From NCBI GenBank assembly GCA_031082315.1, contig JAVHLC010000001.1, forward strand, positions 221,224 through 285,223: a stretch of 64,000 nt of DNA, read 5' to 3'. The notes under the pieces were generated by a model. It made no database searches, was not told where the DNA came from, and was given only the letters and a program-made list of their open reading frames with translations. The stretch comes from Thermodesulfobacteriota bacterium (lineage in GTDB: Bacteria; Desulfobacterota; QYQD01). Made by a program: the position numbers and the translations under genes. Shown one piece after another: positions 7,660 through 23,911 of the stretch (positions within the stretch are counted from its first letter, which is position 1; every line of letters starts with the position of its first letter).

Positions 7660-8211
7660 TTATCCTAATTCCTTCTTGAAAAGAAGGCGCTGTTCGATTA
7701 TTTTTTCTGCAAAAGTGGTAAAGTTGTTGGTTTCCTCGTTGTTTTCCAGTACCAAATCACTATTTATCGGTTCTTCAAAGGAAAGATCAACGCCCACAAC
7801 GTTTTTCTCATCCCCTTTCATTGCTTTGCTATATAGGCTTTTCTGATCTCTCTTCAGCAGAACTTCCATTGAAACCTTGACATATATCTGGAAATAATTG
7901 TCTATGTTATTGCGGTTCCAGCATTGCACCTCATGATACAGCGACATTGTCGCGCAAACAACATTGACCCCCTGATCCGCAAGAAAGCAGCACATCCTTG
8001 AGATCCTATATGCGTTTTTTATTCTGTCTTTAGTGTTGTGCTGCAAATCGTTTCCCATTATTTCTCGCATTGCATCGCCATCCAGAAAAACTGCTTTTTC
8101 ATTCCTTGCAACAAGCGCTTTGAATAAAGCCAGCGCAATGCTTGTTTTACCTGCGCCGGCAAGCCCGGTGATCCAGTAAACAGTGCCTGTCTTATCCAGC
8201 TTTATATGCAT
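7660..8211 (-). CDS. cysC: adenylyl-sulfate (APS) kinase
   Basis: 183 aa. P-loop VYWITGLAGAGKTSIA and overall APS-kinase layout. Overlaps the next gene by 10 nt (operonic). Confidence 0.75.
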   Translation of the reverse strand: MHIKLDKTGTVYWITGLAGAGKTSIALALFKALVARNEKAVFLDGDAMREIMGNDLQHNTKDRIKNAYRISRMCCFLADQGVNVVCATMSLYHEVQCWNRNNIDNYFQIYVKVSMEVLLKRDQKSLYSKAMKGDEKNVVGVDLSFEEPINSDLVLENNEETNNFTTFAEKIIEQRLLFKKELG

Positions 8212-9664: not shown

Positions 9665-9669
9665 AATTT

Positions 9670-12600: not shown

Positions 12601-12708
12601 CAGCGCCGATTCATTGCTGCGTATCTTTTTAAGCGAAGTTGGATAACTCTTTTTTGAGTCCAGGAAGCGTACGCCGTAAGAGGAGTCAATTATTATCGTA
12701 TTGATCAT
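9670..12708 (-). CDS. PEP-utilising enzyme family protein (PEP synthase / pyruvate-phosphate-dikinase-like phosphotransferase) with extra N-terminal domain
   Basis: 1012 aa. Central PPDK_N/ATP-grasp-like region (RSSALVEDAWLASNAGRFKSV) and C-terminal PEP-utiliser mobile His domain (GGVASHMAIRAAEFGLPAAIGCG). The N-terminal ~250 aa form an additional nucleotide-binding-like domain. Confidence 0.6.
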   Translation of the reverse strand: MINTIIIDSSYGVRFLDSKKSYPTSLKKIRSNESALDWNIAALKKEGISSITYIGGYHMEKVVQQYPDLHYHFHSNWEKEGTLKALLDAEYLVRKGGLVIDGRSVFRPKAVKALLKERADLVFGIEPVTEGGTGELTEHVLFYPNKAGKKIRFAGLIKCSYVGAGALIDKAKELTKKDLTLELHDLVRELLEAGVDVQLVDLTGYWSSLTRPGELARFVLGSKAQTLERLQPLLKTAVILDQVRFTVREWQTAQGPVLEKIGSHLKTERLVVRSSALVEDAWLASNAGRFKSVLDVDAGSTRHIKQAVEKVIASYRENGAEEDGNQVLIQPFVDSTVMCGVLFTRDIETRAPYYVINYHVTERTDTVTAGTSDGLKTVLAYKKGDLSALDERLLSVIEMAREVETLVGYDSLDIEFAMHESGRIYVLQVRPIAAKRRHFIPTDDDFDFEITEAKRIVAEAFQLSTNLLGKSSLLSNMSDWNPAEMIGTHPRLLAISLYHYLITDRVWGEARKLIGYRDTYPSPLMIVVSGQPYIDLRVSFNSFIPAEVSGATAEKCVNGYLGYLAENPEYHDKIEFEVAVTCFTFDFDEHSRRLFSMGLAASEIEELKRALLIQTDRIIKGEIMPIGRQLDALKEMERRRVLLIGASDSRVAMPARIKQLLDDCSRYGTLPFSILARYGFIALAILRSLKNKEVLTEEEYEACLHIPTIATEIADALELTLNGSMSREEFLGKYGHLRPGTYDILSPNYREAAHVYLNPAIGKRSSGNCLKAVSSAWELLETKFSQIEDMLNENGMKCTPSQLREFIFAAVSGREFAKFEFTKNVNLALEWITKLNSYWGLDKDQLSHLSIHDILNWTNNSRHSAISSKLRRLISFEKKRYELNQSIKLPHLIRTPGDSDSFELLECKPNFVTSKTVSGEVILLEEHATWGKNIKGKIVAIRNADPGFDWIFVHGIAGLITQYGGVASHMAIRAAEFGLPAAIGCGEILFKRVSNSRFITLDCSSKRVNIID

Positions 12709-12747: not shown

Positions 12748-13776
12748 CTAACCATTTACAAGACTTTTTGATGTCCGATAGATGCCCTGCATGGTTTTGA
12801 AAACGTTTAACCTTATAAATATTAACAGCAAAAATTCCCGCATGGGGAGATGCTTTAAGGTGTGGATATTCGCTTTTGGATATTTCCAGTAAAAGAATGG
12901 TCGAAATTGCGAAAGCGCATAGCTAAGGCAATCGATTTCCTTCTTATCCAGACTATCTTTATGTGATCCTATAGGCTCTCTGGAGATACCGTTAAATTTA
13001 ATGTTTTGCTGTGAATTTCCTGACCACGGTATGCCATAGCTTGTTGGTGTTTTTAAAGAATCGTGGAAAGATATTTTTAGAAAGTCACATATCTTTTTAA
13101 TATTTTCTTCCTGGCCTTCCAGCAAGTCTTCAAACCGAATGATCATTATCCTTTGGGGATTTCTTTTCTTCAACCATACAATTTTTCTACTTGATTCAAG
13201 CCACTCGTTACAGAACGAAACGGCCGTAACGACACCGCCTTTCTTCTTCATTTTTTTCCGGTACGAGGCGAAATTATCATAAGGGTCCCGCACTAAGTGT
13301 ATAGCTTTTGCATTGGGATACCATTTGAAAAAAAGATCCAGATAAAGCTCGTTGCCATGGGTCTTTTCAATCCACATCTTCGGTTTTGTGCCTTTAAACC
13401 GGGACTTCTCATAAAAGCTCTTTAATAAACTCAATTGCAGGCTTTTTGCCGATTCTCCATCCCAATTCTCCTTAATACTATGACTAAACGCTTCAAAATC
13501 AAAATCGTTATAGTCACGATCCCCGCCTGCTAGAGATGCTCTTTTATGATGAAGACTGTAGATACCTGTTTCCGGCCCGGATGTTAAAAATTTTTCTATA
13601 TTGAAATCATTTACAAACAAACCGTCACGTCTTATTATAGCCCGAAGGTTTGTTTCAACAGGCATAACAAGAAGTTCAGGATGGCCATCTAAAATGTTCC
13701 TCAAAAGAGTTGTTCCGGATGTAGCATGGCCGGTAATAAAAACAGGGTGGTCTAAAAATCCATACTCTGACATCAT
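12748..13776 (-). CDS. PAPS-dependent sulfotransferase
   Basis: 342 aa. 5'-PSB-like FITGHATSGTTLL and classic 3'-PB motif HLVRDPYDNFAS. Confidence 0.7.
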   Translation of the reverse strand: MMSEYGFLDHPVFITGHATSGTTLLRNILDGHPELLVMPVETNLRAIIRRDGLFVNDFNIEKFLTSGPETGIYSLHHKRASLAGGDRDYNDFDFEAFSHSIKENWDGESAKSLQLSLLKSFYEKSRFKGTKPKMWIEKTHGNELYLDLFFKWYPNAKAIHLVRDPYDNFASYRKKMKKKGGVVTAVSFCNEWLESSRKIVWLKKRNPQRIMIIRFEDLLEGQEENIKKICDFLKISFHDSLKTPTSYGIPWSGNSQQNIKFNGISREPIGSHKDSLDKKEIDCLSYALSQFRPFFYWKYPKANIHTLKHLPMREFLLLIFIRLNVFKTMQGIYRTSKSLVNG

Positions 13777-13779: not shown

Positions 13780-15213
13780 TCAATTCAGCCCTGCTGATTT
13801 TCCATCGGCAACGCTTTCTATTAACTTTGCAACCCGCAAACCTGCCTTCCCATCGTTAAACGGGTTGTACTTCAGTTGCAATTCGTTTCTCTGTTTTGAT
13901 TTTTCCTTTGGATGTTTCAGCGCATTTTTTATAAGCTCAACGAGATTTGACGGGGATGAAGCTATATCGGGCGCTCCTGTGGCCATCATCGGCTGATAGC
14001 AGGGATATTCAAGCTCATGCCTTCCAAACTCATCCTGCTCGCTGCCTTTCAGACCTGTCCACTCGTATATAGGCCAGATGATCGGCTTATCAAAATATAC
14101 GGAGTCAAGTGTAATTGTTGATGCGTAGTTGATTATCACGTCGCTGTGCTTCAAAAGGTTTCCAAGGTGGTAAAGAGAGGACGGATCGTTCTTCCATCTG
14201 TGATCCGGCCTTATACTTGGAAAGCACGAGCTATCGGGCACATCGTATATAACATCGGGTATCGGCCCAAGAGTATGACAGTACTGAAGCCTTGTAAGAC
14301 CATGTATTTCACGGATAATCAATTGTGCTTTTTCCGCAAATCCTCCGTTCTGAATAGTCTCAATAATTGATCTGATGTTTTCGCTTTCCTTGTAGTTTGA
14401 ATATTTGCCGCCCCTCGATATATACGTGATGACTTTTTTTGAAGGATCCGCCCCGATGCTTTTTAAAAACGCCGAACGTTCCATAAGCCAGTCATCGTTA
14501 AGGAGGTAATCATGTTGTGGAATGCCTACCGTAAGCACGCTTTCCTCTTTTAACTGAGGATAAAGATAGAGCATCTCGCTTCTCATGATTTCATTCCAGA
14601 CAGTAATATAATCGGCGGGTTCCAGTATTCTCCCTTTCGCTGTAAGGTTATCCCAGCTATGTATCATGCTTATGGTCGGAATGCGGCGATGTTTTGCGTT
14701 AATGACCAACTGCACATCGCCGTCAACGAAGGGGTGTGATGAAAACAAGGCTGAGGGCTTATATTCGTCTATCATATTTTGGTAGTAGGGGCTGATGTAA
14801 ATCTTGCGGACGTAATCAACAGCCCGGCGGTTTAAGAAGGGAAACAGGATAAATATTTTTCCGAAAATGCGATTGAAAAGTTCATCACGTTTGTTAAACT
14901 TGTCTTTCAAAATCAGGTTCAGGGGAACTCCGTGAAAAGACTTCCCGTTGTAAAAGTAGTAGCGGTCTCCATAACGATAAATTCTGAAAATCAGCTTATT
15001 AAGCAAGCTTTTTTTAATTTCAAACACCGATGGTTTAATAACAACGTTTTCTCTTTTAAACTCTTTGTTAAACTCAGGATCATCTGCCATGCTTGAGAAA
15101 ATAACAGTCCTGAACCTGGATGCAAGGTAGTCATAGAAGGGATTGCGGAGGAAGTTCCGGGCAGACATAGGATACGGTAACGAAAGAAATATAGTTTTCT
15201 GCCCGGACATCAC
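13780..15213 (-). CDS. hypothetical protein, possibly TagB/TagF-like CDP-alcohol glycerophosphotransferase family
   Basis: 477 aa, soluble. Weak resemblance to TagF C-terminal motifs (KKVITYISRGG...; YASTITLDSVYFDKPII). Confidence 0.3.
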   Translation of the reverse strand: MMSGQKTIFLSLPYPMSARNFLRNPFYDYLASRFRTVIFSSMADDPEFNKEFKRENVVIKPSVFEIKKSLLNKLIFRIYRYGDRYYFYNGKSFHGVPLNLILKDKFNKRDELFNRIFGKIFILFPFLNRRAVDYVRKIYISPYYQNMIDEYKPSALFSSHPFVDGDVQLVINAKHRRIPTISMIHSWDNLTAKGRILEPADYITVWNEIMRSEMLYLYPQLKEESVLTVGIPQHDYLLNDDWLMERSAFLKSIGADPSKKVITYISRGGKYSNYKESENIRSIIETIQNGGFAEKAQLIIREIHGLTRLQYCHTLGPIPDVIYDVPDSSCFPSIRPDHRWKNDPSSLYHLGNLLKHSDVIINYASTITLDSVYFDKPIIWPIYEWTGLKGSEQDEFGRHELEYPCYQPMMATGAPDIASSPSNLVELIKNALKHPKEKSKQRNELQLKYNPFNDGKAGLRVAKLIESVADGKSAGLN

Positions 15214-15286: not shown

Positions 15287-16438
15287 TCACCCCTTATTTC
15301 CTCGCACGAAATCCATGAACCTTTCTTTCACTTGCACAGGGCTCAGGTTTGGTCTGCCAAGGTCGGAAGCCGCTCCGCTTTTGACTTTCACATGGACGAT
15401 GTGAGGCCCGGGTGACGCGCACGCCCTTTTGATCTCTTTCTCCAGTTCCTCTCTCTCATAAACTGTTACCGCCGATGCAAAACCGCATGCTATCGCTATT
15501 TCAGGAAAATTTACGGAGCCGGACAAGGTCTGCTGGCCACCGGTAGATTCGTATGCCTCATTATCCAGCAAGAAGTGAATGTAATTGGAGGGAGCAAAAT
15601 GACCTATTGAAACCCACGACTCCAGGCGCATAAGCGCCGCTCCATCACCGTCAAGAACGGCGACTCTTTTTCCCGGCTGATACATGGCAAGCCCGAGTCC
15701 GATGCTGGACGCGCATCCCATTGAGCCCACAATGTACATCTGGTTAGGGAGGTCATGCATCGCAAATAGCTCTCTTGATATCTTTCCCGTGGTAGAAACA
15801 ACCATGGTCTGCATCCCCAGAAGCCCCGTGATTATCTCAATCGCTCCCGCACGGCGCAATCTGAGATCACCTCTTTTAGCACACGGGATCAGTTTCCCCC
15901 TGTAAAGGCGCTTGCCCTCATTTTTTGCAGTCTCTACTTTTTCAACCGAGTCCTTACGCATTATGAAAGAGTAGGGGAGACCGCTTTTTTCCATTGTATC
16001 CAGCGCGGCATCTATGCCCTTTTCAATGTTTTCTTCCTTGTCTGGAAAGAAATCGTTTTTCACTTTCATTATGTCCAGCATATCAACCGTTATTTTTCCC
16101 ATTAGCTCATGTTGTGGTTCATCCTTTATCCCGGTTTCTCCACGCAGGGTTATAATCATCAAAATAGGAATCCGATAAACGTAATTCAGAGAGGTTAACG
16201 GGCTCACACAATTCCCCAGCCCGGAGTTCTGCATCATTACAACCGGGCGCTTTCCGGCAAGATAGGCGCCGGTTGCCACGGCAACCGCTTCTCCCTCATT
16301 GTTTACCGGGAGATATTCCAACTTTTCCGATTTAATAGCATAATTGATCAACGGTTTTATAAAGGAGCAGGGAACACCAATAAACGGATTTTGCCCTTTT
16401 GAATTAAGGAGTTCTAAAAAATTACCAGCCCTAATCAA
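15287..16438 (-). CDS. phosphonopyruvate decarboxylase (TPP-dependent, fused alpha/beta)
   Basis: 383 aa two-domain TPP enzyme with the GDG(X)n-N motif (LDGDGAALMRLESW). The size and context, next to a PEP mutase and an AEP transaminase, fit Ppd/AepY. Confidence 0.7.
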   Translation of the reverse strand: MIRAGNFLELLNSKGQNPFIGVPCSFIKPLINYAIKSEKLEYLPVNNEGEAVAVATGAYLAGKRPVVMMQNSGLGNCVSPLTSLNYVYRIPILMIITLRGETGIKDEPQHELMGKITVDMLDIMKVKNDFFPDKEENIEKGIDAALDTMEKSGLPYSFIMRKDSVEKVETAKNEGKRLYRGKLIPCAKRGDLRLRRAGAIEIITGLLGMQTMVVSTTGKISRELFAMHDLPNQMYIVGSMGCASSIGLGLAMYQPGKRVAVLDGDGAALMRLESWVSIGHFAPSNYIHFLLDNEAYESTGGQQTLSGSVNFPEIAIACGFASAVTVYEREELEKEIKRACASPGPHIVHVKVKSGAASDLGRPNLSPVQVKERFMDFVRGNKG

Positions 16439-17601
16439 TGTAAGGCCTCCATAGGCATCGTTATCCCCATCTGTCCAAGAGTCTCCTCAAGTGCATTCAA
16501 AAAATTAATCACATCACCTTTATCTATTGCGCCCATGTTTGCAATTCTGAATGTATCCATTTTGCTTATTTTCCCGGGATAAATCGTAAAGCCACGTTGA
16601 TAGAGCATATCGTGGAGTTTTTCAAAACTAAAATAAGGGCTTGCAGGGAAATAGACAGTGGTCAGTATCCGCGACTGCAGGCCTTCAGGCAACAAAAACC
16701 TGAAGCCTAACTTACGCAAGCCGTCTGTAAGGGTATGCCAGTTTTCCGAATATCGTCTATGGCGAAAAATTCCCCCCCCTTCTTCGAAATACTCTTTTAA
16801 TGCCTGTCTGAGTGCATATACCAACTGTACGGGGGGTGTAAAGGTCATCTCTCTTTTTTCTTCCCAGTAGCGGTACTGCCGGTAAAGATTCAGGTAAAAA
16901 GAACGCGGCGGTATCTCTGAGAGTTTATCCAGCGGTTCTTTTCTGGCGATCACGAAAGAAAGGCCCGCCATTCCTTGAATACACTTGTTTGATGTTGACA
17001 TTATGTAGTCAATTTCATGCCTTTTGACATCAATCGGGATCCCTGCATAAGAGCTTATGGCGTCAATGATAACCTCGCGTCCCAGCCTTTTTGCGATAGC
17101 GCAGACGTCTTCCAGCGGGTTGAGCATCCCGGTAGAGGTCTCATGGTGAACCATCGCTACGTGCGTAACATCTTTGTTTTCAATCAATACTTTTTCCAGC
17201 AAAAGCAGGTCCGGCGGGTCAGTCCACCTGAAAGACAGCTCAAGAAAACCTATGCCATACGCTTCGGCTATTTTCACCATCCGCTCGCCGTATGCTCCGT
17301 TGTTGATAATCAATACTCTCTTCCCCGGTTTTATTGTGGAGTTGATCGTCGCGTCCATGACGGCAGTACCCGAGCCCGAGAAAAGCACGCAAGCGTATCT
17401 TTCGTCAGCGCCTACAACTTCCAAAAGGCCACGCCGAACTTCCTCCATAATTATGGAAAAATCTTTTTCGCGGGGGCAGATATCCGGCACAACCAATGAC
17501 AGCTTCACGCTGTCTGTGGTAGTGGCAGGTCCGGGATTAAGAAGTATGTTCCGTTTTATGTTTAACCCCATGGGATGATGCTCCTTTTTTTTCTGCGGCA
17601 A
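16435..17601 (-). CDS. 2-aminoethylphosphonate:pyruvate aminotransferase-like (class V PLP aminotransferase)
   Basis: 388 aa. NILLNPGPATT start and the PLP-lysine region MSTSNKCIQG of class V aminotransferases. Context is a phosphonate cluster. The start may be the internal Met (MGLNIK). Confidence 0.65.
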   Translation of the reverse strand: MPQKKKEHHPMGLNIKRNILLNPGPATTTDSVKLSLVVPDICPREKDFSIIMEEVRRGLLEVVGADERYACVLFSGSGTAVMDATINSTIKPGKRVLIINNGAYGERMVKIAEAYGIGFLELSFRWTDPPDLLLLEKVLIENKDVTHVAMVHHETSTGMLNPLEDVCAIAKRLGREVIIDAISSYAGIPIDVKRHEIDYIMSTSNKCIQGMAGLSFVIARKEPLDKLSEIPPRSFYLNLYRQYRYWEEKREMTFTPPVQLVYALRQALKEYFEEGGGIFRHRRYSENWHTLTDGLRKLGFRFLLPEGLQSRILTTVYFPASPYFSFEKLHDMLYQRGFTIYPGKISKMDTFRIANMGAIDKGDVINFLNALEETLGQMGITMPMEALH

Positions 17602-18298
17602 GGCCTTGCGCCGTTAGTACATCTTCGGGAAAATCTATCTCTACCCACTTAAGACCATCAACTGCTACATATGATATCGGGCACACATCAAACATCTCTG
17701 AAAACAAGAATTCATAACCGATATTCCTTTCTCCCTCTTCCACTTTCCGTTCCAAAAGGGAAGACATTTTGTCGGCAACTGCTGCAGAGAGCCGGGTGAA
17801 TCCGACCATTTCGCCTAGGACGGTAAAATTTCCTTTTAGACCCCTTGCCTGTGCCACCGCCCTGTCTCCGTCAAAACCTACCATCACCGCTTCGCCATCG
17901 TTTATTGAAGTGGTATCAAGCAGAAAGAAATCCTTCTTAGGTGAAGAAAATATCATGTCTAATATCTCCTCCACAAAATACACATCGGCATCCATTATCA
18001 ACACATCATCGTTTAGCTCTTTTCTTGCGTGCCAAAGGGAGAGTATGCTTCCTTCCTCAAAATCAGGATTTACCACTATCTTGACCCTATCCCCAAAACC
18101 TGACTCTTTAACCTCCGTTTCCAATTTTTCATGCTTATATCCCGCCACGAGAATTATATCCCTTACATTAAAGGCATCAAGAACCCTCATATAGCGTCTA
18201 AGCAAGGTCTCTCCATCGATTTGTAAAAGACATTTAGGCTCGTTTGTATATTGCCCTAACCGCTTTCCTACACCGGCAGCCAGAATAATTGCTTTCAT
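17537..18298 (-). CDS. LicC-like cytidylyltransferase (phosphocholine / phosphonate cytidylyltransferase family)
   Basis: 253 aa. MKAIILAAGVGKRLGQYTNEPKCLLQIDGETLL nucleotidyltransferase signature. Confidence 0.6.
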   Translation of the reverse strand: MKAIILAAGVGKRLGQYTNEPKCLLQIDGETLLRRYMRVLDAFNVRDIILVAGYKHEKLETEVKESGFGDRVKIVVNPDFEEGSILSLWHARKELNDDVLIMDADVYFVEEILDMIFSSPKKDFFLLDTTSINDGEAVMVGFDGDRAVAQARGLKGNFTVLGEMVGFTRLSAAVADKMSSLLERKVEEGERNIGYEFLFSEMFDVCPISYVAVDGLKWVEIDFPEDVLTAQGLAAEKKGASSHGVKHKTEHTS

Positions 18299-18324
18299 AT
18301 CCCGCCTATAACCTTCGTAAAATT

Positions 18325-19050
18325 CTATCTAACCCAAACTGATACATGGAATCTGAACCTGGCGTTGCCGTATTTTTCCTCTGGCCATTCAAGGATCGCG
18401 GCCCTCAAACCATACGATTTGAAGAAATCCGTAAAAAATCCCTTCGTGAAATAGAGATGGCTAAAATCCCCTTCAGATCCTGTCCGGTAGTTCTTCCCAT
18501 CGCTCTCCGCCAGGGACTTGCGCCTTCCCTCGCTCTCTTCTTTTTTTTCCATGTCCGGCACATCGGATATCAGAAGCCCTCCTCCCTTTTTAAGAACACG
18601 CAGCATCTCTGCCATAACTTCCTTTGCGTAATCTTCGTGAGGAAAGTAGTGAAAAACCCCGTGCGATAATACCCTTGAAAAAGAGCCGTCGGGAAATGGT
18701 ATTGAAGAGGCTTCTGAAACTTTTATCTCGGCATCCGGTACGGCTTTTTGGGCAATGCTGACAAGCGGAGCGGAGTAATCTATTCCCGCCAGATTCAGGT
18801 TCATGGCAGAAAGAGGCAACAGCATTGCGCCGGAACCACAGCCAACTTCAAGCAGTGAATCGGCTTCATAGAGTTTCAAGCTGGCCTTAATATTCTCAAC
18901 TCGTTCCGTCCACATCTTCTCATCCATCTTTCCTGCCCCACCATCAAAGCCGTCAGCAGTGATCAGCTCGGAAAGGGTGATGCCTTTAGCTTCCCGCCCC
19001 TTTCTTTCCCAGACGTTTTTCCAGCTTTCAAACCTTTTTTCCCTTTTCAT
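18325..19050 (-). CDS. class I SAM-dependent methyltransferase
   Basis: 241 aa. Motif I LLEVGCGSGAML. Confidence 0.6.
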   Translation of the reverse strand: MKREKRFESWKNVWERKGREAKGITLSELITADGFDGGAGKMDEKMWTERVENIKASLKLYEADSLLEVGCGSGAMLLPLSAMNLNLAGIDYSAPLVSIAQKAVPDAEIKVSEASSIPFPDGSFSRVLSHGVFHYFPHEDYAKEVMAEMLRVLKKGGGLLISDVPDMEKKEESEGRRKSLAESDGKNYRTGSEGDFSHLYFTKGFFTDFFKSYGLRAAILEWPEEKYGNARFRFHVSVWVR

Positions 19051-19081
19051 CTCTCCTTATCCTTTTACAGAATTCCTGATT

Positions 19082-19855
19082 TTATATAACCGTGCCGGGC
19101 AAAAATGCCTTTTTGTTTCTGAGGATAAATACGATTTTTTCTACTAATAGTTTCTCCAAAATAAAAAATGTTCCTATAAGCAGAAAAATATTTACCAGTC
19201 CGAAAAAAGGACCTACAACAAAAAACAGTATCGCGATATCTGCCATGTCCAAAGTAAGGTATGAGACTTTATACTTATTTGTAATCGCCTTGAATTTACC
19301 GGCGAATATCTCGAGAAAGCCCACAAGTTTCTCACCCCGAGCTGATTTATCCACTGCGACCTCTTTATTACTGTTAACCATAGCCTCTCTAAATAATATG
19401 CTCTCGTAGCTTACAAACAGGTATAAAAAGGGAAGCAACATCCCTACAACCAGCCATAATTCACGATTAACAATCACATACTGGCTGTAAATCAAGGCCG
19501 CAAGGCACAAGAAATCACCCGCAGCATCAGCAAGATAATCATAATATTTTCCCATCGGAGATTCTTCTCCCCTGACACGCGCAACCTTTCCATCCACATC
19601 ATCAAGCGTAATGCTTATAAGGTAGGCAAGGGCGCCAAGAATCAGGTAATTCCTTAGCCCAAAATAGAAAAAGAGCGAGGCGCACAATTTAAGAATGAAA
19701 TGTATTAAAGTTATTTTGTTGGGGGTTAATCTTGTGTAATTAACCACAAACCATGCAATCCTTACGGCCAGGAAATCAACTAAGATAAGTCCGCCGATGT
19801 AGTTATAATTTCCCCTTCGGCATCTTTTGATATCTTCAATTGTATATGACGCCAT
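19082..19855 (-). CDS. CDP-alcohol phosphatidyltransferase family membrane protein
   Basis: 257 aa, multi-TM. Signature D-x2-D-G-x2-A-R-x8-G-x3-D-x3-D (LDDVDGKVARVRGEESPMGKYYDYLADAAGD). Confidence 0.7.
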   Translation of the reverse strand: MASYTIEDIKRCRRGNYNYIGGLILVDFLAVRIAWFVVNYTRLTPNKITLIHFILKLCASLFFYFGLRNYLILGALAYLISITLDDVDGKVARVRGEESPMGKYYDYLADAAGDFLCLAALIYSQYVIVNRELWLVVGMLLPFLYLFVSYESILFREAMVNSNKEVAVDKSARGEKLVGFLEIFAGKFKAITNKYKVSYLTLDMADIAILFFVVGPFFGLVNIFLLIGTFFILEKLLVEKIVFILRNKKAFLPGTVI

Positions 19856-19881
19856 AAGTTATCGCAGTATTTTGTATTCTA

Positions 19882-20790
19882 TCATATCTGTTTAGAAACC
19901 GGTTTTTTCGCCAAGACATAAAACAATCTATCCCCAATATAATTTAGTTTGTACTGGGGAATCCTTTTTTTCTTTTCAATGCGAAAGAGGTGCGTGATTG
20001 ACTCAATCATTCTAATAAAATTAGGATCTTTTGATTCGGGTGTATGGCTTTCAAACATGAGATACCCGTCTTCCTTTAATATTCCATGAATCCTTTCCAT
20101 GTGCTCTATAAAGGAAAGATTCAGGTTCTTATCCCCGGTCTGATGGTTGGCGAGCGAAAAAACTAAATCGTATTTTTTATCAAGCTTCATTTTGCTGAAA
20201 TCATCGATTACAAAATTTACATTTTTAATGCCAAGAACCCTCTGCACTTCCCTTCCCATATTCACAATAAACGGGTTAAAATCCACGGCATCCACATGCC
20301 TTACCTTCAGAGCGATTTTCAGCGCTAAAAAACCGCTGTTACATCCTATGTCCAGGGCATATTTCCCCGGCGACAGGTAGTTATCTATTTCGTACTCTTT
20401 TAGCCGCTTATTCGTTTCCCGGAATCCCCGGATGCCTATATCACTCCATCCCTGATAGTAATACCCTCCGGCATAAATGTGACTTCCCCAACCCCTTCCT
20501 TGAGACTCCAGATGCCCTTTGAGTTTTTGGTGCAACGGAATCATTTTCCGCTTAAACAAAGATACGTCCAAGGAATCTCTTGTCCTTAGAAGGGGTATCA
20601 GTATCTTGTTGCGGTGTCTTTTCATAAAAAGAGTGTATCTATTGTTAATTGCCCTATGAATTCTTCGCAATAAAACTTCCTTATCTGCCTGAAGCAAGCA
20701 TAAAAGGAATTTCAAAAATCCCAGTTCACGGATTAATTTACCCGCCGGCTTTTCGCCATTTAAAAACGCATTGAATTCAGACACAGCCAT
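19882..20790 (-). CDS. class I SAM-dependent methyltransferase
   Basis: 302 aa. Motif I YALDIGCNSGFLALK and a downstream acidic motif (VDAVDFNP). Confidence 0.55.
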   Translation of the reverse strand: MAVSEFNAFLNGEKPAGKLIRELGFLKFLLCLLQADKEVLLRRIHRAINNRYTLFMKRHRNKILIPLLRTRDSLDVSLFKRKMIPLHQKLKGHLESQGRGWGSHIYAGGYYYQGWSDIGIRGFRETNKRLKEYEIDNYLSPGKYALDIGCNSGFLALKIALKVRHVDAVDFNPFIVNMGREVQRVLGIKNVNFVIDDFSKMKLDKKYDLVFSLANHQTGDKNLNLSFIEHMERIHGILKEDGYLMFESHTPESKDPNFIRMIESITHLFRIEKKKRIPQYKLNYIGDRLFYVLAKKPVSKQI

Positions 20791-20794
20791 TTAT

Positions 20795-22456
20795 CTATTT
20801 AATCAGCAAACATGCAAGCTTGTAGTTTTCAAATGAGTGTAGTTCCATCCACCCGGAATTCACTTCAATACACGCCACAGGATGGCCCAGGTCAATAATC
20901 TCCTGCAGCAGGTCCGCCAGGCCTGCCCTCTCAAATACAGGGGCCTCATGGAAAGGTTTTCCCGCATATTTTTTAGCAGAGACATCGTAAATTCCCCTGA
21001 ATATTTTGGCTCCCTTTTTTGAAAGCACCAGCAGACCGGGAAATTCAAAATGTGCCTGATCCCTGTCAATCTTCATGCCTATTTGCTTCACCCTTTTTAC
21101 GGAGGCTTCGTGTAATTTACGTTTAGCCTTTACCGGTGCGCTATCGGTGATTACAAGATCCAGAAGCTTGTCTTGTGCATAATCCTTGGAGTCGTAGCCG
21201 GAATCCGCAAGAATTGTAATATCCTCCGGGCTTTTTAAAAGGAGTTCCAGTATCACGTTCTCAAAGTAGATGTCGCCGTAGGAAATTACCGCTTTTGAGT
21301 CCATGTGTTTTCCTGCCTGCATGACGGAATGAAGAATGCCCGTATTTTTATAGTCTGTGTTCTCAAGAAGCCTTACGCCATCCACATCTATTAGTTCTCT
21401 TTTGTAACCGGTTACCACAAATATCTCGGAGATTTCTGATTTGTGCAGTGTTTCAGCCTGCCTTTGTAAAAGCGGCTTGCCATTTATGTCGAGCATGGAG
21501 ATCGGTATTTCGGAAGCAATCTTGTTCATGGAATGTTCTTCCAGATGATCTCCCGCCGCCGCTATAACCGCAATTGTCTTTTCCCTGTCACCATGGAGAA
21601 ACTGTTTTTCATCCTCCTTCATTTTCGGCATGCCTTGAAGCTCGAATATGTACTTCATTGTAGTAATCTTTCCCTCAACGCTCTTTGTAGAACCCGTTCT
21701 CAGAATCTCGCCATATATGGACTCGATTGCCTTCACGGAGGCCCTTATGCCATGGTTTGCATAGACCACGACACTTATCCCGGAATCTGCAAGCTCTTCG
21801 GCGCTTACTTCATAATAGGATGTCGGAACAACTACCAGCGGCAACCGATTTCCCCAGCGGCGTGCGAATTCTAATACCTCATCCGGCGTTTTTTTCTTGG
21901 AATGTATCAATATTGCATCCGCGCCTGCTTCATGGTATGCCTTTGCCCTCATGAGCGCCTCGTCCATTCCGTAGCCTGCTATTAATGCCTCCACCCTGGC
22001 AACTACCATAAAGTCCGGGTCTGTCTGCGCACTCTTGGCAGCCATTATTTTTCCAACAAATTCCGCAACAGACGCGAGTTCCTGCTTTCCTGGGATAAAA
22101 CTGTTTGTTTTCGGAAATTTCTTATCCTCTATACATATTGCAGCGATACCTGCCGCCTCATATTTCTTAACCATATAGATAACATTGTTGGAATTTCCAT
22201 ATCCCGTATCACAGTCCGCCATAACAGGTATGGCAACTGCATCATTTATCTCGCAGGTCCTCTCCAGGTATTGACTCATTGTCAATATGTTTGCATCCGG
22301 CACACAATATGAGGTAGAAATTTCCAGTCCCGATGCCCATATCCCATCAAAGCCCTGGTTTTCACCGAGCTTGGCGGTCAATCCATCATGCGCCCCGATA
22401 AGGCGGACAATTCTTTTTTGTAATATCAGATCGCGTAAAAGTTTTGTTTTTTTCAT
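20795..22456 (-). CDS. phosphoenolpyruvate mutase (PepM) fused to a C-terminal nucleotidyltransferase domain
   Basis: 553 aa. The N-terminal ~290 aa match PEP mutase / isocitrate-lyase superfamily hallmarks (LIGAHDGLTAKLGENQGFDGIWASGLEISTS...ICIEDKKFPKTNS). The C-terminal ~250 aa are NTP-transferase-like (IAVIAAAGDHLEE...). Confidence 0.75.
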   Translation of the reverse strand: MKKTKLLRDLILQKRIVRLIGAHDGLTAKLGENQGFDGIWASGLEISTSYCVPDANILTMSQYLERTCEINDAVAIPVMADCDTGYGNSNNVIYMVKKYEAAGIAAICIEDKKFPKTNSFIPGKQELASVAEFVGKIMAAKSAQTDPDFMVVARVEALIAGYGMDEALMRAKAYHEAGADAILIHSKKKTPDEVLEFARRWGNRLPLVVVPTSYYEVSAEELADSGISVVVYANHGIRASVKAIESIYGEILRTGSTKSVEGKITTMKYIFELQGMPKMKEDEKQFLHGDREKTIAVIAAAGDHLEEHSMNKIASEIPISMLDINGKPLLQRQAETLHKSEISEIFVVTGYKRELIDVDGVRLLENTDYKNTGILHSVMQAGKHMDSKAVISYGDIYFENVILELLLKSPEDITILADSGYDSKDYAQDKLLDLVITDSAPVKAKRKLHEASVKRVKQIGMKIDRDQAHFEFPGLLVLSKKGAKIFRGIYDVSAKKYAGKPFHEAPVFERAGLADLLQEIIDLGHPVACIEVNSGWMELHSFENYKLACLLIK

Positions 22457-22576: not shown

Positions 22577-23911
22577 TTATAATTGCAAGCTCTCCTTGAT
22601 CCTGAACTTCTTACTTACGTCAGAGAAAAATCTTTTGTAATGCAGATAATCAGACCCATCAAGTAACACCAGTTTTTTAAGATTTATATCAGATTCTTTC
22701 GCAAAGATTAAAGCCAAAATAAGTGTAGAAGCGGTGTATGTTATTGTTGAAGATATGGCCGCCCCCCGGATCCCCAAACGGGGAATCAGTAGCAGGTTAA
22801 GAGCAACATTCAGGACAACACTTGATGCGTAAATGTAATTGATCATCCCTACCCTGGCCTTGCCAATAAAATAGTGGTTCAATGATATGCCTGCCCCCAT
22901 TGCCACGATCCCGGGTAAAAGAATCTTAAGCGAAGAAAGCAAGGGCAGAAAATCCTTCCCGTAGAAAATTTCCACGGCGACTGGAGCCAAAAAGTAGACA
23001 AACAATCCTACCACCGCCATAAGCCAAAGTGTATTACGAAAAGCTGTAGCTGTTAGGCCTTTCCCATATTTGTCTTCTCCTGAGGCGACCCTTGGCAGGA
23101 CCAGGATATCAGTTGCATTCAGTAACCATATCTTCTGACCAAAACCTGCTGCCAGACTGTAAAAGGCAACCTGAGGCGGAGTTAAAAAATAAGCAATTAT
23201 CCACAAGTCTATTCTGTAGTGAAGGGAGCTGATAACATTTCTGAGATATACTTTACACCCATAGCTCAGAAGAGAGCGGAAATGAACAACCTTTGATGAT
23301 ACAGAGGGAAATCTTCCCGTTGTAAGCCTGAATTTCCATAATGTGTATAAGGCTGCAAATATATTTATTAAAGAGTGCCCTAAAATGACCGCTCCTATGT
23401 CCAGAGAAGTGGTCAAGAATAAGATAATTCCTGTAATGCCCGGAAGAACACCGTTAATAAACCTTATTCTGTTTATTGTATGAATATCTTCTTTTGCTAC
23501 AAAAATATAGGTAAAGTAATTAATTATGAAACGCGGGGGGAGGGTCACAAGTATGGCAAGAAAATACCAGGTGGCCACCCCATGCTCTTTTATAAAAGTG
23601 GTTATAAAAAGGTCACTATACGCATAAAATAGCAGTGTCGGGATGCTTCCGATTATAAATGATGCAATCAATAAGACAGCGGCGGCATCCCTTATATCCA
23701 TCTCCTTCTTTGATATCTTATAGACCGAGGCTACCCCCATGCCTAAGCGTCCGAACGTCTCAAAGAATTGCGGAATGAGCATAATAATGGCTATGATTCC
23801 GAGCTTGGTAGGCCCCAAAAGCCTTGCAAGCATGATATTTGCCAGCATCCCTATCAGAAGTACAAATATCCTGTTAGAAACGATGGAAACGTATTTATTT
23901 GCGGAAGTCAT
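22577..23911 (-). CDS. oligosaccharide flippase (Wzx / MOP superfamily polysaccharide biosynthesis protein)
   Basis: 444 aa, about 12 predicted TM helices, with a typical Wzx N-terminus. Confidence 0.7.
   Translation of the reverse strand: MTSANKYVSIVSNRIFVLLIGMLANIMLARLLGPTKLGIIAIIMLIPQFFETFGRLGMGVASVYKISKKEMDIRDAAAVLLIASFIIGSIPTLLFYAYSDLFITTFIKEHGVATWYFLAILVTLPPRFIINYFTYIFVAKEDIHTINRIRFINGVLPGITGIILFLTTSLDIGAVILGHSLINIFAALYTLWKFRLTTGRFPSVSSKVVHFRSLLSYGCKVYLRNVISSLHYRIDLWIIAYFLTPPQVAFYSLAAGFGQKIWLLNATDILVLPRVASGEDKYGKGLTATAFRNTLWLMAVVGLFVYFLAPVAVEIFYGKDFLPLLSSLKILLPGIVAMGAGISLNHYFIGKARVGMINYIYASSVVLNVALNLLLIPRLGIRGAAISSTITYTASTLILALIFAKESDINLKKLVLLDGSDYLHYKRFFSDVSKKFRIKESLQL

What the first reader, a model, noticed from the sequence alone, without database searches (positions are those of the whole stretch)
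15287..22456. Complete 2-aminoethylphosphonate pathway embedded in a surface-glycan locus, with PepM fused to a nucleotidyltransferase
Three genes encode the canonical C-P bond pathway within 7 kb of each other on one strand:
- PEP mutase (20795..22456).
- TPP-dependent phosphonopyruvate decarboxylase (15287..16438).
- A class-V aminotransferase of the AEP-transaminase type (16435..17601).

The PepM polypeptide carries a C-terminal ~250-aa nucleotidyltransferase domain. That is the architecture expected for direct activation of the phosphonate product to a CMP-conjugate before transfer onto a glycan or lipid. Together with the flanking transferases, this indicates a phosphonate-decorated cell-surface polymer rather than a small-molecule antibiotic.
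Basis: partly seen in the sequence, partly recalled or inferred. Interest (0 to 1): 0.75.

Follow-up and report, generated by a model that had tools for sequence, protein, structure and literature searches.

The report
Aminoethylphosphonate pathway in surface-glycan locus
This is a real but ordinary gene set for making 2-aminoethylphosphonate and attaching it to the cell surface, of a kind described in 2019; it is unusual mainly because, in this bacterial lineage, it is interleaved with genes for a second rare phosphorus decoration (a phosphoramidate).

Summary
On the minus strand, three intact ORFs pass NCBI's curated equivalog cut-offs: PEP mutase (20795-22456), phosphonopyruvate decarboxylase (15287-16438) and AEP transaminase (16435-17601). 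PepM has the EDK(X)5NS motif and all catalytic residues. Its C-terminal 263 aa form a LicC-like nucleotidyltransferase (NT) domain. The genes lie in a ~35 kb Wzz/Wzx polysaccharide locus of a Thermodesulfobacteriota MAG.

The architecture is not new. About a third of all PepMs carry this fusion, usually with a second NT nearby (Rice 2019; Li & Horsman 2022).

- **A canonical NT gene.** A stand-alone NT (17537-18298) sits next to the transaminase. Its best solved relative is the characterised AEP cytidylyltransferase Tde1415, so it is the better candidate for making CMP-AEP.
- **A remodelled fused domain.** The fused NT lacks the signature Arg and Lys and has His in place of a metal-binding Asp. 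These changes co-vary across 77 relatives.
- **A phosphoramidate module.** The pathway is interleaved with a Campylobacter MeOPN-type module (7660-12708). This gene set is kept in two related loci despite gene shuffling. It is absent from 80 other PepM-NT loci.

Verdict: new member of a known kind, with modest interest.

The parts
20795..22456 (-). PepM (aa 1-290) fused to a non-canonical LicC-like nucleotidyltransferase domain (aa 291-553; DNA 20798-21586)
   Evidence: TIGR02320 340.5 bits > 319.55 cut-off. EDKKFPKTNS motif present. Pfam PF13714 + PF12804. Model TM 0.92 to 5UNC. The NT domain has AAGDHLEEHSMNK...IPI and WMELH in place of GxGxR...PK and WxEID.
19882..20790 (-). SAM methyltransferase (302 aa); probably part of the phosphoramidate module (O-methylation) rather than an AEP N-methylase
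   Evidence: Pfam Methyltransf_31/25. Homologues of 30-36% identity (112-140 bits) lie in 11 Gln-kinase loci that lack PepM, several directly beside the kinase gene. None is found in 80 PepM-NT metagenome loci.
19082..19855 (-). CDP-alcohol phosphotransferase-family membrane enzyme; candidate transferase of AEP from CMP-AEP to an alcohol acceptor
   Evidence: PF01066, E 3.6e-15. The best NCBIfam match is the DIPP-synthase half of IPCT/DIPPS. The signature DDVDGKVARVRGEESPMGKYYDYLAD, i.e. D(x)2DG(x)2AR(x)8G(x)3D(x)3D, is intact (read). The gene is kept in L001-L003.
18325..19050 (-). SAM methyltransferase (241 aa); target unknown (phosphoramidate/phosphonate ester O-methylation or AEP N-methylation)
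   Evidence: Methyltransf_11/25. Weak homologues (27-31% identity, 58-68 bits) lie directly after the Cj1416-like NT gene in PepM-less loci L017, L022, L027 and L028. It also hits PmtA weakly at 1.4e-6.
17537..18298 (-). Stand-alone canonical nucleotidyltransferase; best candidate for the AEP cytidylyltransferase (PntC)
   Evidence: PF12804, E 1.2e-15. The best PDB sequence match is 6PD1 (Tde1415 PntC-AEPT), E 1.6e-11, aligned over aa 2-225. The GVGKRLGQYTNEPK signature is present. Orthologues lie in the minimal operons of L084 (46% identity) and L165.
16435..17601 (-). AEP:pyruvate transaminase (AEPT); the true start is probably downstream of 17601
   Evidence: TIGR03301 446.9 bits > 360.8 cut-off. 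PF00266.
15287..16438 (-). Phosphonopyruvate decarboxylase (Ppd), TPP-dependent; 4-nt start/stop overlap with AEPT
   Evidence: TIGR03297 418 bits > 312.5 cut-off. TPP_enzyme_N and TPP_enzyme_C.
13780..15213 (-). TagF-like CDP-X:acceptor phosphotransferase homologue; candidate transferase for a CMP/CDP-linked P-donor
   Evidence: PF04464, E 1.4e-11. The Ppd-TagF-sulfotransferase-GlnK block is conserved in L001 and L002.
12748..13776 (-). Sulfotransferase-fold enzyme; uses a 3'-phosphonucleotide donor (PAPS, or by inference 3'-phospho-CDP-amidate)
   Evidence: Sulfotransfer_3, E 4.6e-26. Conserved in L001 and L002.
9670..12708 (-). Degenerate NT-like domain (aa 1-212) fused to an L-glutamine-kinase-like PPDK-type enzyme (Cj1418 family)
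   Evidence: NF004508/PRK05849 869 bits > 501 cut-off over aa 215-1011. PPDK_N + PEP-utilizers. JGI names homologues 'glutamine kinase'.
9002..9757 (-). Class-I glutamine-amidotransferase/C26 hydrolase (Cj1417-like gamma-glutamyl-CDP-amidate hydrolase)
   Evidence: PF07722, E 1e-26. The top NCBIfam match is NF045546 at 102 bits, below its 250 cut-off. It lies next to the kinase in 74 of 80 genome loci.
8202..9005 (-). Canonical nucleotidyltransferase (Cj1416-like CTP:phosphoglutamine cytidylyltransferase)
   Evidence: PF12804/PF00483. ILAAGMGQRLQPLTTEIPK signature present. Present in 77 of 80 Gln-kinase loci.
7660..8211 (-). APS-kinase-fold kinase (Cj1415-like cytidine diphosphoramidate 3'-kinase; alternatively a true APS kinase)
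   Evidence: NF004041/PRK05541 195.9 bits > 127 cut-off. TIGR00455 apsK scores 130.1, below its 138.7 cut-off. Homologues of 34-52% identity lie in 28 of 80 Gln-kinase loci, in several of them directly after the NT gene.
4362..7564 (-). Sulfatase/alkaline-phosphatase-family protein (5894-7564) and B12-binding radical SAM enzyme (4362-5939); conserved accessory pair of unknown role
   Evidence: Pfam. NCBIfam hits to HpnJ and PhpK-type rSAM models are all below cut-off. The pair is kept in L001. B12-rSAM homologues occur in 7 of 35 PepM-NT loci.
22577..23911 (-). Wzx-type polysaccharide flippase immediately upstream of PepM
   Evidence: Polysacc_synt/Polysacc_synt_3. The Wzx-PepM adjacency is kept in L001-L003.

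Best explanation
The region encodes a biosynthetic 'phosphonyl tailoring' pathway within one long, same-strand polysaccharide operon of a Gram-negative Thermodesulfobacteriota bacterium.

**Steps shown at family level**
- PepM converts PEP to phosphonopyruvate.
- Ppd pulls that unfavourable equilibrium forward by decarboxylating phosphonopyruvate to phosphonoacetaldehyde.
- AEPT transaminates phosphonoacetaldehyde to 2-aminoethylphosphonate (AEP).

**Steps inferred**
- The stand-alone canonical nucleotidyltransferase (17537-18298) condenses AEP with CTP to give CMP-AEP.
- A CDP-alcohol-phosphotransferase-family membrane enzyme (19082-19855) and/or the TagF-like enzyme (13780-15213) transfers the aminoethylphosphonyl group to a hydroxyl of the lipid-linked glycan. 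Wzx then flips the glycan.
- The NT-like domain fused to PepM belongs to a conserved but remodelled subtype. It probably does something other than canonical AEP cytidylylation; a regulatory or product-sensing role is one possibility.
- In this lineage the AEP genes are co-inherited and interleaved with a Cj1418-Cj1415-type module, which by homology makes 3'-phospho-CDP-amidate. The same glycan is therefore probably decorated with both a phosphonate and a (methyl) phosphoramidate.
For: - Three equivalog-level matches lie above curated cut-offs, and the PepM motif and catalytic residues are present.
- The glycan context is clear: Wzz, Wzx, NeuB, CMP-NulO synthetase, DegT, UDP-sugar dehydrogenase and GT1 are all on the same strand with gaps of <=120 nt or overlaps in the AEP-phosphoramidate stretch. 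LptD in the same window indicates an outer membrane.
- The stand-alone NT matches the PntC structure 6PD1 best and keeps the signature. NT plus CDP-alcohol PT together resemble a split IPCT/DIPPS.
- The minimal conserved operon PepM-NT/Ppd/AEPT/PntC is seen in L084 and L165.
- A second NT gene lies outside the fused gene in 25 of 35 PepM-NT loci of >=12 kb. This matches the published description of Pnt clusters.
- The phosphoramidate module is supported by PRK05849 at 869 bits, the top C26 hit being gamma-glutamyl-CDP-amidate hydrolase, and PRK05541 above its cut-off. The order kinase-C26-NT-APSK-like recurs across phyla.
- L001 (72% PepM identity) has a shuffled gene order but keeps the gene set. 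L002 (68%) keeps the PepM-to-kinase stretch, up to its locus end, in the window's order.
Against: - No enzyme here has been assayed, and the organism is an uncultured MAG, so no 31P-NMR or glycan structure exists.
- Which NT acts on AEP is inferred only from sequence. The scores of the stand-alone NT against PntC, IPCT and LicC are close (47.5, 42.2 and 40.6 bits). At one of the two amine-contacting positions it has Asp, as in LicC, rather than Glu.
- The acceptor could be a lipid rather than a glycan.
- The C26 protein scores below the equivalog cut-off.
- The APS-kinase-like gene plus the sulfotransferase could simply be a sulfation module.
- The co-location of the phosphonate and phosphoramidate modules could reflect two independent decorations, or merely a shared polysaccharide-locus 'parking place'.
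Confidence: 0.75

Rival explanations
1. The PepM-fused NT domain is itself the AEP (or phosphonate) cytidylyltransferase, and the stand-alone NT activates something else, for example a phospho-alcohol or a sugar phosphate for the same glycan.
For: The fused domain has the LicC-like fold family (PF12804; LicC at E 6e-6). It is strongly conserved. Fom1 is a precedent for an active CyTase fused to PepM, and the literature calls these fused domains PntC. The YGD motif and the Glu of W-x-E are retained.
Against: The domain lacks the Arg and Lys of GXG(T/S)RX4-8PK. Their Ala substitutions cut Tde-PntC activity to <10%, and the Lys-to-Ala change abolishes FrbH and YgbP activity. An Asp->His change co-varies with loss of the Lys: 26 notK+H, 38 K+D and 0 mixed. 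A canonical NT lies next to AEPT, is always in the minimal operon, and is closer to the assayed PntC. No fused PF12804 domain was assayed in the papers read.
Confidence: 0.25
2. The AEP ends up in a phosphonolipid rather than on a polysaccharide. The CDP-alcohol phosphotransferase would act like a choline/ethanolamine phosphotransferase (CMP-AEP + diacylglycerol), possibly followed by N-methylation.
For: An intact CDP-alcohol phosphotransferase gene is present. The large 'Burkholderiales_CDP-OH' group of AEP clusters, which has two PntCs and phospholipid genes, is read as phosphonolipid-producing. MT_241 shows weak similarity to the phospholipid N-methyltransferase PmtA.
Against: The gene sits inside a Wzz/Wzx/GT/NulO locus, and Wzx is adjacent to PepM in all related loci. 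No acyltransferase or other lipid-synthesis genes are present. The methyltransferases have better links to the phosphoramidate module.
Confidence: 0.2
3. The APS-kinase-like gene (7660-8211) and the sulfotransferase (12748-13776) form an ordinary PAPS-dependent sulfation module, and the sulfatase-family gene is related to it. There would then be no PAPS-like phosphoramidate donor or transferase here.
For: Pfam finds APS_kinase, Sulfotransfer_3 and Sulfatase. The host is from a sulfate-reducer phylum, where APS is abundant. TIGR00455 misses its cut-off only narrowly (130 vs 138.7).
Against: The kinase overlaps the Cj1416-like NT gene by 10 nt. Homologues of 34-52% identity lie in 28 of 80 Gln-kinase loci from many phyla, in several directly after the NT gene. 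It passes the PRK05541 subfamily model rather than apsK. In C. jejuni the homologous kinase makes 3'-phospho-CDP-amidate.
Confidence: 0.25
4. The cluster is catabolic, or it makes a small-molecule phosphonate. In the catabolic case the PepM homologue would be a phosphonopyruvate hydrolase and the transaminase a PhnW used for AEP degradation.
For: Phosphonopyruvate hydrolase is the second-best model and structure match. The PhnW models also score highly.
Against: The hydrolase model is below its cut-off, and the NS of EDK(X)5NS is present where the hydrolase has TS. Ppd is a biosynthetic enzyme. There is no PhnX, PhnA, PhnY or C-P lyase, no transporter, and no NRPS or ATP-grasp tailoring.
Confidence: 0.03

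Closest known systems
Phosphonyl-tailoring (Pnt) clusters with a Ppm-PF12804 fusion plus a second PntC (Treponema denticola, Atopobium rimae, Olsenella uli; Rice et al. 2019, PMC6697681)
   Same: The core is the same: Ppm with EDK(X)5NS fused to a MobA/LicC-like NT, plus Ppd, AEPT, a second NT one to a few genes away, and a cell-wall glycan context. CMP-AEP is the activated donor.
   Different: Here the transferase candidates are a CDP-alcohol PT and a TagF-like enzyme rather than LicD-like enzymes. PntC is not fused to AEPT. The fused NT is of the remodelled 'notK/His' subtype. A phosphoramidate module is interleaved.
'Burkholderiales_CDP-OH' group of AEP gene neighbourhoods (Li & Horsman 2022, PMC8942020)
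   Same: Both have Ppm-fused NT, a second PntC, Ppd, AEPT and a CDP-alcohol-phosphotransferase-type gene.
   Different: That group has an alpha-KG/Fe(II) oxygenase (for 1-hydroxy-AEP) and phospholipid genes, and is read as lipid-directed. The present locus has no oxygenase and lies in a Wzx/Wzz polysaccharide operon.
Campylobacter jejuni O-methyl phosphoramidate pathway Cj1418-Cj1417-Cj1416-Cj1415 (Taylor & Raushel, summarised in PMC11800397 and PMC6429109)
   Same: The same four enzyme families are present in the same transcription order: PPDK-like Gln kinase, C26 hydrolase, NT and APS-kinase-like kinase. SAM methyltransferases accompany them. (The C. jejuni gene order is from my memory, not a tool.)
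   Different: The kinase carries an extra N-terminal degenerate NT-like domain, which most environmental homologues have but the model PRK05849 does not cover. The C26 protein is below the equivalog cut-off. The phylum is different, and the module is interleaved with AEP genes.
Cobalt Borg genes 308-320 (bioRxiv 10.1101/2024.11.05.622173)
   Same: A PEP-mutase/NT fusion lies next to a Gln kinase, hydrolase and NT. A PntC-AEPT and a CDP-alcohol phosphotransferase lie in the same glycoconjugate region. This is the same phosphonate-plus-phosphoramidate combination.
   Different: That example is an archaeal extrachromosomal element. It was described only by structure-based annotation, and its fused NT was read as a phosphoglutamine cytidylyltransferase.
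Fom1 (CyTase-PepM) of fosfomycin biosynthesis
   Same: PepM is fused to a cytidylyltransferase that acts on a later phosphonate intermediate.
   Different: Fom1's CyTase is N-terminal and belongs to a different family (PF01467). It serves a small-molecule antibiotic pathway. That type is seen in L009 but not in the window.

Membership tests
PEP mutase (PepM/Ppm) | Score above the curated equivalog cut-off, and above sister families of the ICL/PEP-mutase superfamily | tested here: met
   TIGR02320 scores 340.5 against a cut-off of 319.55. The phosphonopyruvate hydrolase, methylisocitrate lyase and carboxy-PEP mutase models are all below their cut-offs.
PEP mutase (PepM/Ppm) | EDK(X)5NS motif and catalytic/Mg residues (mussel D58, D85, D87, E114, K120, N122, S123, R159, H190) | tested here: met
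   IEDKKFPKTNS is present. D54, D81, D83, E110, K116, N118, S119, R154 and H185 are invariant in A1.
PEP mutase (PepM/Ppm) | TIM-barrel PepM fold | tested here: met
   AlphaFold model, mean pLDDT 82.9. Foldseek to 5UNC gives E 1.5e-34, TM(target) 0.92 and 56% identity.
PEP mutase (PepM/Ppm) | Catalyses PEP <-> phosphonopyruvate | not testable with these tools
   Needs an enzyme assay.
Phosphonopyruvate decarboxylase (Ppd) | Equivalog score above cut-off and above sulfopyruvate decarboxylase; TPP_N + TPP_C domains | tested here: met
   TIGR03297 scores 418 against 312.5. ComDE models score 151 and 104, below their cut-offs. PF02776 + PF02775 are present.
AEP transaminase (AEPT/PhnW-AepZ) | Equivalog score above cut-off; class-V aminotransferase fold | tested here: met
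   TIGR03301 scores 446.9 against 360.8. PF00266, E 5.7e-23.
PntC (phosphonate-specific cytidylyltransferase) - stand-alone gene 17537-18298 | LicC-like PF12804 fold with the GXG(T/S)RX4-8PK signature | tested here: met
   PF12804, E 1.2e-15. AAGVGKRLGQYTNEPK is present, with Lys in place of the T/S. The best PDB match is 6PD1 at E 1.6e-11.
PntC - stand-alone gene 17537-18298 | Acidic residues contacting the AEP amine (Tde E104, E196) | tested here: inconclusive
   The alignment gives D103 (Asp, as in LicC) and E196 (Glu, as in Tde-PntC).
PntC - stand-alone gene 17537-18298 | Prefers AEP over phosphocholine in CTP-dependent assay | not testable with these tools
   Needs an enzyme assay.
PntC - PepM-fused domain (aa 291-553) | GXG(T/S)RX4-8PK signature (Arg15, Lys25 of Tde-PntC) and C-terminal metal-binding acidic motif | tested here: not met
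   The domain has AAGDHLEEHSMNKIASEIPI, with no Arg and Ile in place of Lys, and WMELH with His in place of Asp. This is conserved in its clade and co-varies: 26 notK+H, 38 K+D, 0 mixed.
CDP-alcohol phosphotransferase | D(x)2DG(x)2AR(x)8G(x)3D(x)3D motif in a polytopic membrane protein | tested here: met
   DDVDGKVARVRGEESPMGKYYDYLAD. PF01066, E 3.6e-15. The donor and acceptor were not testable.
MeOPN-type phosphoramidate module (Cj1415-Cj1418) | PPDK-like L-glutamine kinase family member | tested here: met
   NF004508/PRK05849 scores 869 against 501. JGI names homologues 'glutamine kinase'. That PRK05849 represents Cj1418 is from memory.
MeOPN-type phosphoramidate module (Cj1415-Cj1418) | gamma-glutamyl-CDP-amidate hydrolase equivalog | tested here: inconclusive
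   NF045546 is the top hit but scores 102 bits against a cut-off of 250. Synteny with the kinase holds in 74 of 80 loci.
MeOPN-type phosphoramidate module (Cj1415-Cj1418) | Adjacent canonical NT and APS-kinase-fold kinase in the order kinase-hydrolase-NT-kinase | tested here: met
   The four genes span 12708->7660 on the minus strand with overlaps. The same order is visible in loci from several phyla.
MeOPN-type phosphoramidate module (Cj1415-Cj1418) | Cj1421/Cj1422-type phosphoramidate transferase; P-N bond on the glycan | not tested
   No Campylobacter sequences were available in the collections used. Chemistry is not testable here.

The most novel reading that the evidence does not exclude
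The phosphonate and phosphoramidate genes are not two independent decorations but one integrated system with two features.

(i) The APS-kinase-like enzyme 3'-phosphorylates both CDP-amidate and CMP-AEP. This would give PAPS-like donors used by the sulfotransferase-fold enzyme.

(ii) Non-canonical NT-like domains are fused to the first enzyme of each branch (PepM and the Gln kinase). These would be non-catalytic product sensors or scaffolds, analogous to GMPPA or the AGPase large subunit, that gate entry of PEP and glutamine into the two pathways. A canonical free NT would do the chemistry in each branch.
Probability: 0.15. Interest if true: 0.65.

Novelty: new member of a known kind. Interest (0 to 1): 0.3.

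Why it matters
As reported, the finding adds one more uncultured lineage (Thermodesulfobacteriota) to the many bacteria that put AEP on their surface. It does not change the picture drawn by Rice et al. 2019 and Li & Horsman 2022.

Three by-products may be more useful.

- **The role of the fused domain.** The commonest PepM architecture carries an NT domain whose role has never been assayed. Here it falls into two sharply separated subtypes. One has lost residues shown to be needed for cytidylyl transfer, yet it is highly conserved. That makes 'what does the fused domain do?' a concrete, testable question.
- **Distribution of the phosphoramidate genes.** Chemically, the MeOPN modification is known only from Campylobacter. 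Its biosynthetic genes occur in more than 580 species-representative genomes of bacteria and archaea.
- **Co-occurrence of the two modifications.** P-C and P-N modification genes have come together at least twice, in this lineage and in a Kiritimatiellae MAG, with a Borg reported elsewhere. This hints that the two modifications are used together on surface glycans.

Tried and rejected
- **Alternative PepM identities.** I tested phosphonopyruvate hydrolase, methylisocitrate lyase and carboxy-PEP mutase. All fail their curated cut-offs, and the NS motif is present.
- **Sulfopyruvate decarboxylase for Ppd.** Rejected.
- **The two methyltransferases as AEP N-methylases** (making N-methyl- or trimethyl-AEP, a 'phosphonocholine'). 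I downgraded this. MT_302 homologues sit in Gln-kinase loci that lack PepM and are absent from 80 PepM-NT loci. It is not excluded for MT_241.
- **The PepM-NT/phosphoramidate association as general.** It is not. None of 80 PepM-NT metagenome loci has the kinase or the C26 gene. Only 1-2 of 80 Gln-kinase genome loci have PepM.
- **Fold search of the whole fusion model.** It returned only PepM-superfamily hits in the top 50, so it said nothing about the NT domain. I did not make a domain-only model.
- **Protein search with the NT domain alone.** It returned mainly short sequences that look like fragments of PepM fusions. No other fusion partner turned up; the only full-length non-PepM matches were two weak NT proteins.
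- **PDB sequence searches for solved Cj1416/Cj1417/Cj1418 homologues.** These gave only generic relatives such as LicC, PuuD and PEP synthase.
- **Raushel papers.** PMC5938747 and PMC5629633 are not held.
- **Promoter/terminator scan.** Results were at or near shuffle level and uninformative.

Full report
**1. Observation**

Every ORF of at least 150 aa between 82 and 34691 that matches a protein family lies on the minus strand. In the stretch from 4362 to 23911, neighbouring genes are separated by gaps of at most about 120 nt or by short overlaps.

- 20795-22456: TIGR02320 PEP mutase, 340.5 bits against a cut-off of 319.55.
- 15287-16438: TIGR03297 phosphonopyruvate decarboxylase, 418 against 312.5.
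- 16435-17601: TIGR03301 AEP aminotransferase, 446.9 against 360.8.

The sister families proposed as refutations all fall below their cut-offs. These are phosphonopyruvate hydrolase (313.9 vs 374.4), methylisocitrate lyase (180 vs 354), carboxy-PEP mutase (100.7 vs 420) and the sulfopyruvate decarboxylase subunits.

The PepM domain carries IEDKKFPKTNS, which matches EDK(X)5NS. The solved hydrolase 2DUA has ...DTS at the same place. The counterparts of the mussel PepM catalytic residues are D54, D81, D83, E110, K116, N118, S119, R154 and H185. All are invariant in an alignment of 20 homologues. An AlphaFold model (mean pLDDT 82.9) superposes on the Streptomyces PepM 5UNC with TM 0.92 and 56% identity.

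Pfam places PEP_mutase at aa 7-251 and NTP_transf_3 at aa 321-419.

**2. Source and context**

The PepM protein is 100% identical to an NCBI entry named 'MAG: phosphoenolpyruvate mutase [Thermodesulfobacteriota bacterium]' on a 404 kb contig. The other half of the window holds housekeeping genes (RadA, DnaB, LptD, UvrD, DnaX). This is therefore a chromosome of a diderm bacterium.

The AEP genes lie inside a polysaccharide locus of about 35 kb. Read in transcription order it contains:
- Wzz, oxidoreductases, a UDP-sugar dehydrogenase, HAD and a DegT aminotransferase.
- A NeuB-type synthase, a methyltransferase and a CMP-nonulosonate synthetase.
- Wzx, followed by PepM-NT, a 302-aa methyltransferase, a CDP-alcohol phosphotransferase and a 241-aa methyltransferase.
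- A stand-alone NT, AEPT, Ppd, a TagF-like enzyme and a sulfotransferase.
- Four further genes discussed in section 5, a sulfatase-family protein, a B12-radical-SAM enzyme, an unknown 235-aa protein, a GT1 and a heparinase II/III-like protein.

There is nothing resembling small-molecule tailoring (NRPS, ATP-grasp) and nothing catabolic (PhnX, PhnA, C-P lyase).

**3. The fusion is a known architecture**

Rice et al. (2019) found that 59.5% of EDK(X)5NS-bearing Ppm proteins are fused to another domain. About 33% are fused to PF12804 specifically. They also noted that clusters often hold both a Ppm-fused NT and a second NT one or two genes away. [quoted passage not shown]

My own searches agree:
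- 5318 proteins match at E <= 1e-30. The best 120 are nearly all ~550 aa with the same two domains, and come from Omnitrophota, Scalindua and others.
- More than 590 metagenome stretches encode relatives.
- In 25 of 35 loci of >=12 kb, a second NT gene lies outside the fused gene.
- Two relatives show the minimal operon PepM-NT, Ppd, AEPT, PntC (L084, L165).

**4. Which NT activates AEP**

The window has four NT-like domains. The stand-alone gene 17537-18298 has a near-canonical signature (AAGVGKRLGQYTNEPK). Its best solved relative is 6PD1, the Treponema denticola PntC-AEPT protein that was shown to make CMP-AEP (E 1.6e-11, aligned over aa 2-225). At the two positions that contact the AEP amine it has Asp and Glu, where Tde has Glu and Glu and LicC has Asp and Asp. 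Specificity is therefore not settled.

The PepM-fused domain's only significant solved match (E < 0.001) is LicC, at E 6e-6. Within the window it is closer to the Cj1416-like NT (29% over 260 aa, E 8e-29) than to the stand-alone PntC (28% over 135 aa, E 1e-12).

Its signature reads AAGDHLEEHSMNKIASEIPI. There is a three-residue insertion, no Arg, and Ile where the Lys should be. Its C-terminal motif is WMELH instead of W-x-E-I-D. Rice et al. report that Ala substitution of Arg15, Lys25 or Lys153 leaves <10% of Tde-PntC activity. They also report that the equivalent Lys-to-Ala change abolishes FrbH and YgbP activity.

These changes are not decay, because they are invariant or nearly so across homologues sharing only 50-70% identity. 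Across 77 metagenomic PepM-fused NT domains the two changes co-vary perfectly:
- 38 keep both the Lys and the Asp.
- 26 have neither, carrying non-Lys plus His.
- None is mixed.

I therefore assign AEP cytidylylation to the stand-alone gene by inference. The fused domain I treat as a remodelled NT of unknown role. The enzymes assayed by Rice et al. (Ari1348, Tde1415) were not Ppm-fused.

**5. The adjacent phosphoramidate module**

Genes 12708->7660 encode four proteins:
- A 1012-aa protein whose aa 215-1011 match NF004508/PRK05849 at 869 bits (cut-off 501). It has PPDK_N and PEP-utilizer domains.
- A C26/GATase protein whose best NCBIfam match is gamma-glutamyl-CDP-amidate hydrolase (102 bits, below the 250 cut-off).
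- A canonical NT.
- An APS-kinase-fold protein that passes PRK05541 (196 vs 127) but not apsK (130 vs 138.7).

JGI names homologues of the large protein 'glutamine kinase'. In C. jejuni, Cj1418, Cj1417, Cj1416 and Cj1415 make CDP-phosphoramidate 3'-phosphate from glutamine, ATP and CTP. This is the donor for the O-methyl phosphoramidate (MeOPN) capsule decoration.

A scan of species-representative genomes found more than 580 loci encoding this kinase family, in many bacterial and archaeal phyla. In the best 80 loci, the C26 gene is present in 74, the NT in 77 and the kinase-like gene in 28. Where coordinates were inspected, the order was kinase-C26-NT-(APS-kinase-like).

The 302-aa methyltransferase that follows PepM in the window has homologues of 30-36% identity in 11 of these PepM-less loci, several directly beside the kinase gene. 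It has none in 80 PepM-NT loci. It therefore probably belongs to the phosphoramidate branch, not to AEP modification. The 241-aa methyltransferase shows a weaker version of the same pattern.

**6. Are the two modules linked?**

Two related contigs carry the same gene set.
- L002 (68% PepM identity) has the window's order for PepM through the kinase, where the locus ends. Its CDP-alcohol transferase gene lies upstream of Wzx.
- L001 (72% identity) is shuffled, yet every component seen in the window except the stand-alone NT and the 241-aa methyltransferase is retained. The retained genes are AEPT-Ppd-TagF-sulfotransferase-kinase, then Wzx-PepM-NT-MT-CDP-alcohol PT, then C26-NT-APS-kinase-like, then the sulfatase-family and B12-rSAM genes. 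Its window begins inside AEPT, so the NT may lie just upstream.

Retention through rearrangement argues for co-selection. The association is nevertheless lineage-specific. None of 80 PepM-NT metagenome loci has the kinase or the C26 gene. Only L009, and doubtfully L079, among 80 kinase loci has a PepM.

L009, from a Kiritimatiellae MAG, is an independent case with a different chemistry. It has a Fom1-type CyTase-PepM fusion, Ppd and an iron alcohol dehydrogenase (the hydroxyethylphosphonate route). These sit beside Wzm/Wzt and the kinase-C26 genes.

A 2024 preprint on Borgs describes the same combination in an archaeal element: a PEP-mutase/NT fusion, Gln kinase, hydrolase, NT, PntC-AEPT and a CDP-alcohol phosphotransferase. 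Li & Horsman note Campylobacter ppm-ppd cores flanked by radical-SAM and adenylylsulfate-kinase genes. The co-occurrence is therefore rare but not unprecedented.

**7. Mechanism**

Shown at family level: PEP -> phosphonopyruvate (PepM) -> phosphonoacetaldehyde (Ppd) -> AEP (AEPT).

Inferred:
- AEP + CTP -> CMP-AEP, by the stand-alone NT.
- Transfer of the aminoethylphosphonyl group to an alcohol. The candidates are the CDP-alcohol phosphotransferase and/or the TagF-like enzyme.
  - The CDP-alcohol phosphotransferase has an intact signature, D(x)2DG(x)2AR(x)8G(x)3D(x)3D.
  - Together with the NT, it resembles a split IPCT/DIPPS.
- The acceptor is most likely the lipid-linked glycan, given the adjacent Wzx. 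A phosphonolipid is the main alternative.
- In parallel, the glutamine-kinase module would supply 3'-phospho-CDP-amidate.
- The sulfotransferase-fold enzyme is a logical user of such a PAPS-like donor, but it could equally be an ordinary sulfotransferase fed by a true APS kinase.

**8. Verdict**

It is overstated about the novelty of the fusion and about its catalytic role.

The thing itself is a new member of a known kind. The features of some interest are the remodelled fused NT subtype and the lineage-specific interleaving of P-C and P-N modification genes. I score interest at 0.3.

Noticed in passing
window 7660-12708 (-): A complete Cj1418/Cj1417/Cj1416/Cj1415-type phosphoramidate (MeOPN-donor) module lies directly downstream of the AEP genes. 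The kinase carries an extra degenerate N-terminal NT-like domain.
   Followed up: yes
L004-L083 (genome scan): The glutamine-kinase-like family is very widespread: more than 580 loci in species-representative genomes of many bacterial and archaeal phyla, usually with the C26 and NT genes. A 2019 review states that MeOPN sugars are known only from Campylobacter.
   Followed up: partly
window 20798-21586 (-); L084-L163: PepM-fused NT domains split into two subtypes with perfectly co-varying changes. Subtype A keeps the signature Lys and the C-terminal Asp (38 loci). Subtype B, which includes the window, has a hydrophobic residue and His instead (26 loci). No locus is mixed.
   Followed up: partly
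L009:3525-14012: A Kiritimatiellae MAG has a Fom1-like CTP_transf_like-PepM fusion, Ppd and an Fe-alcohol dehydrogenase (the hydroxyethylphosphonate route). These sit next to Wzm/Wzt and an NT-Gln-kinase plus C26 gene. This is an independent phosphonate-plus-phosphoramidate co-location.
   Followed up: partly
L088:15602-17029; L113:14027-14461: Some PepM-NT loci carry an extra NT and/or an APS-kinase-like gene (28-29% identity) without any Gln kinase or C26 gene. This hints that CMP-phosphonates may be 3'-phosphorylated in some pathways. Li & Horsman note a comparable Campylobacter group (GCF 385).
   Followed up: no
window 4362-7564 (-): A sulfatase/alkaline-phosphatase-family protein with no obvious N-terminal membrane domain is paired with a B12-binding radical SAM enzyme. 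The pair is conserved in L001. B12-rSAM homologues occur in 7 of 35 PepM-NT loci, so this may be a Fom3/PhpK-like methylation of a phosphonate.
   Followed up: partly
window 24017-29083 (-): A nonulosonic-acid gene set is present: a NeuB-type synthase and a PseF-like CMP-sugar synthetase (both below equivalog cut-offs), a DegT aminotransferase and a 396-aa methyltransferase with an unassigned N-terminal half. Similar NeuB, CMP-sugar-synthetase and DegT genes accompany PepM-NT in L084; NeuB is also near it in L088 and, with DegT, in L103.
   Followed up: no
window 3603-4310 (-) and 26717-27520 (-): The 235-aa ORF has no Pfam or NCBIfam match. The 267-aa ORF has only a marginal NUDIX hit (E 1.7e-4). 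The latter is conserved in L002 at 40% identity.
   Followed up: no
window 1-34000 vs 34000-64000: The polysaccharide locus has a lower G+C content (0.39-0.48) and a strongly negative GC skew. The housekeeping half of the window has G+C of 0.46-0.54. This is typical of horizontally exchanged glycan loci.
   Followed up: no
window 60025-60356 (-): Two tRNA-Ser genes (anticodons GGA and CGA) lie about 150 nt apart.
   Followed up: no
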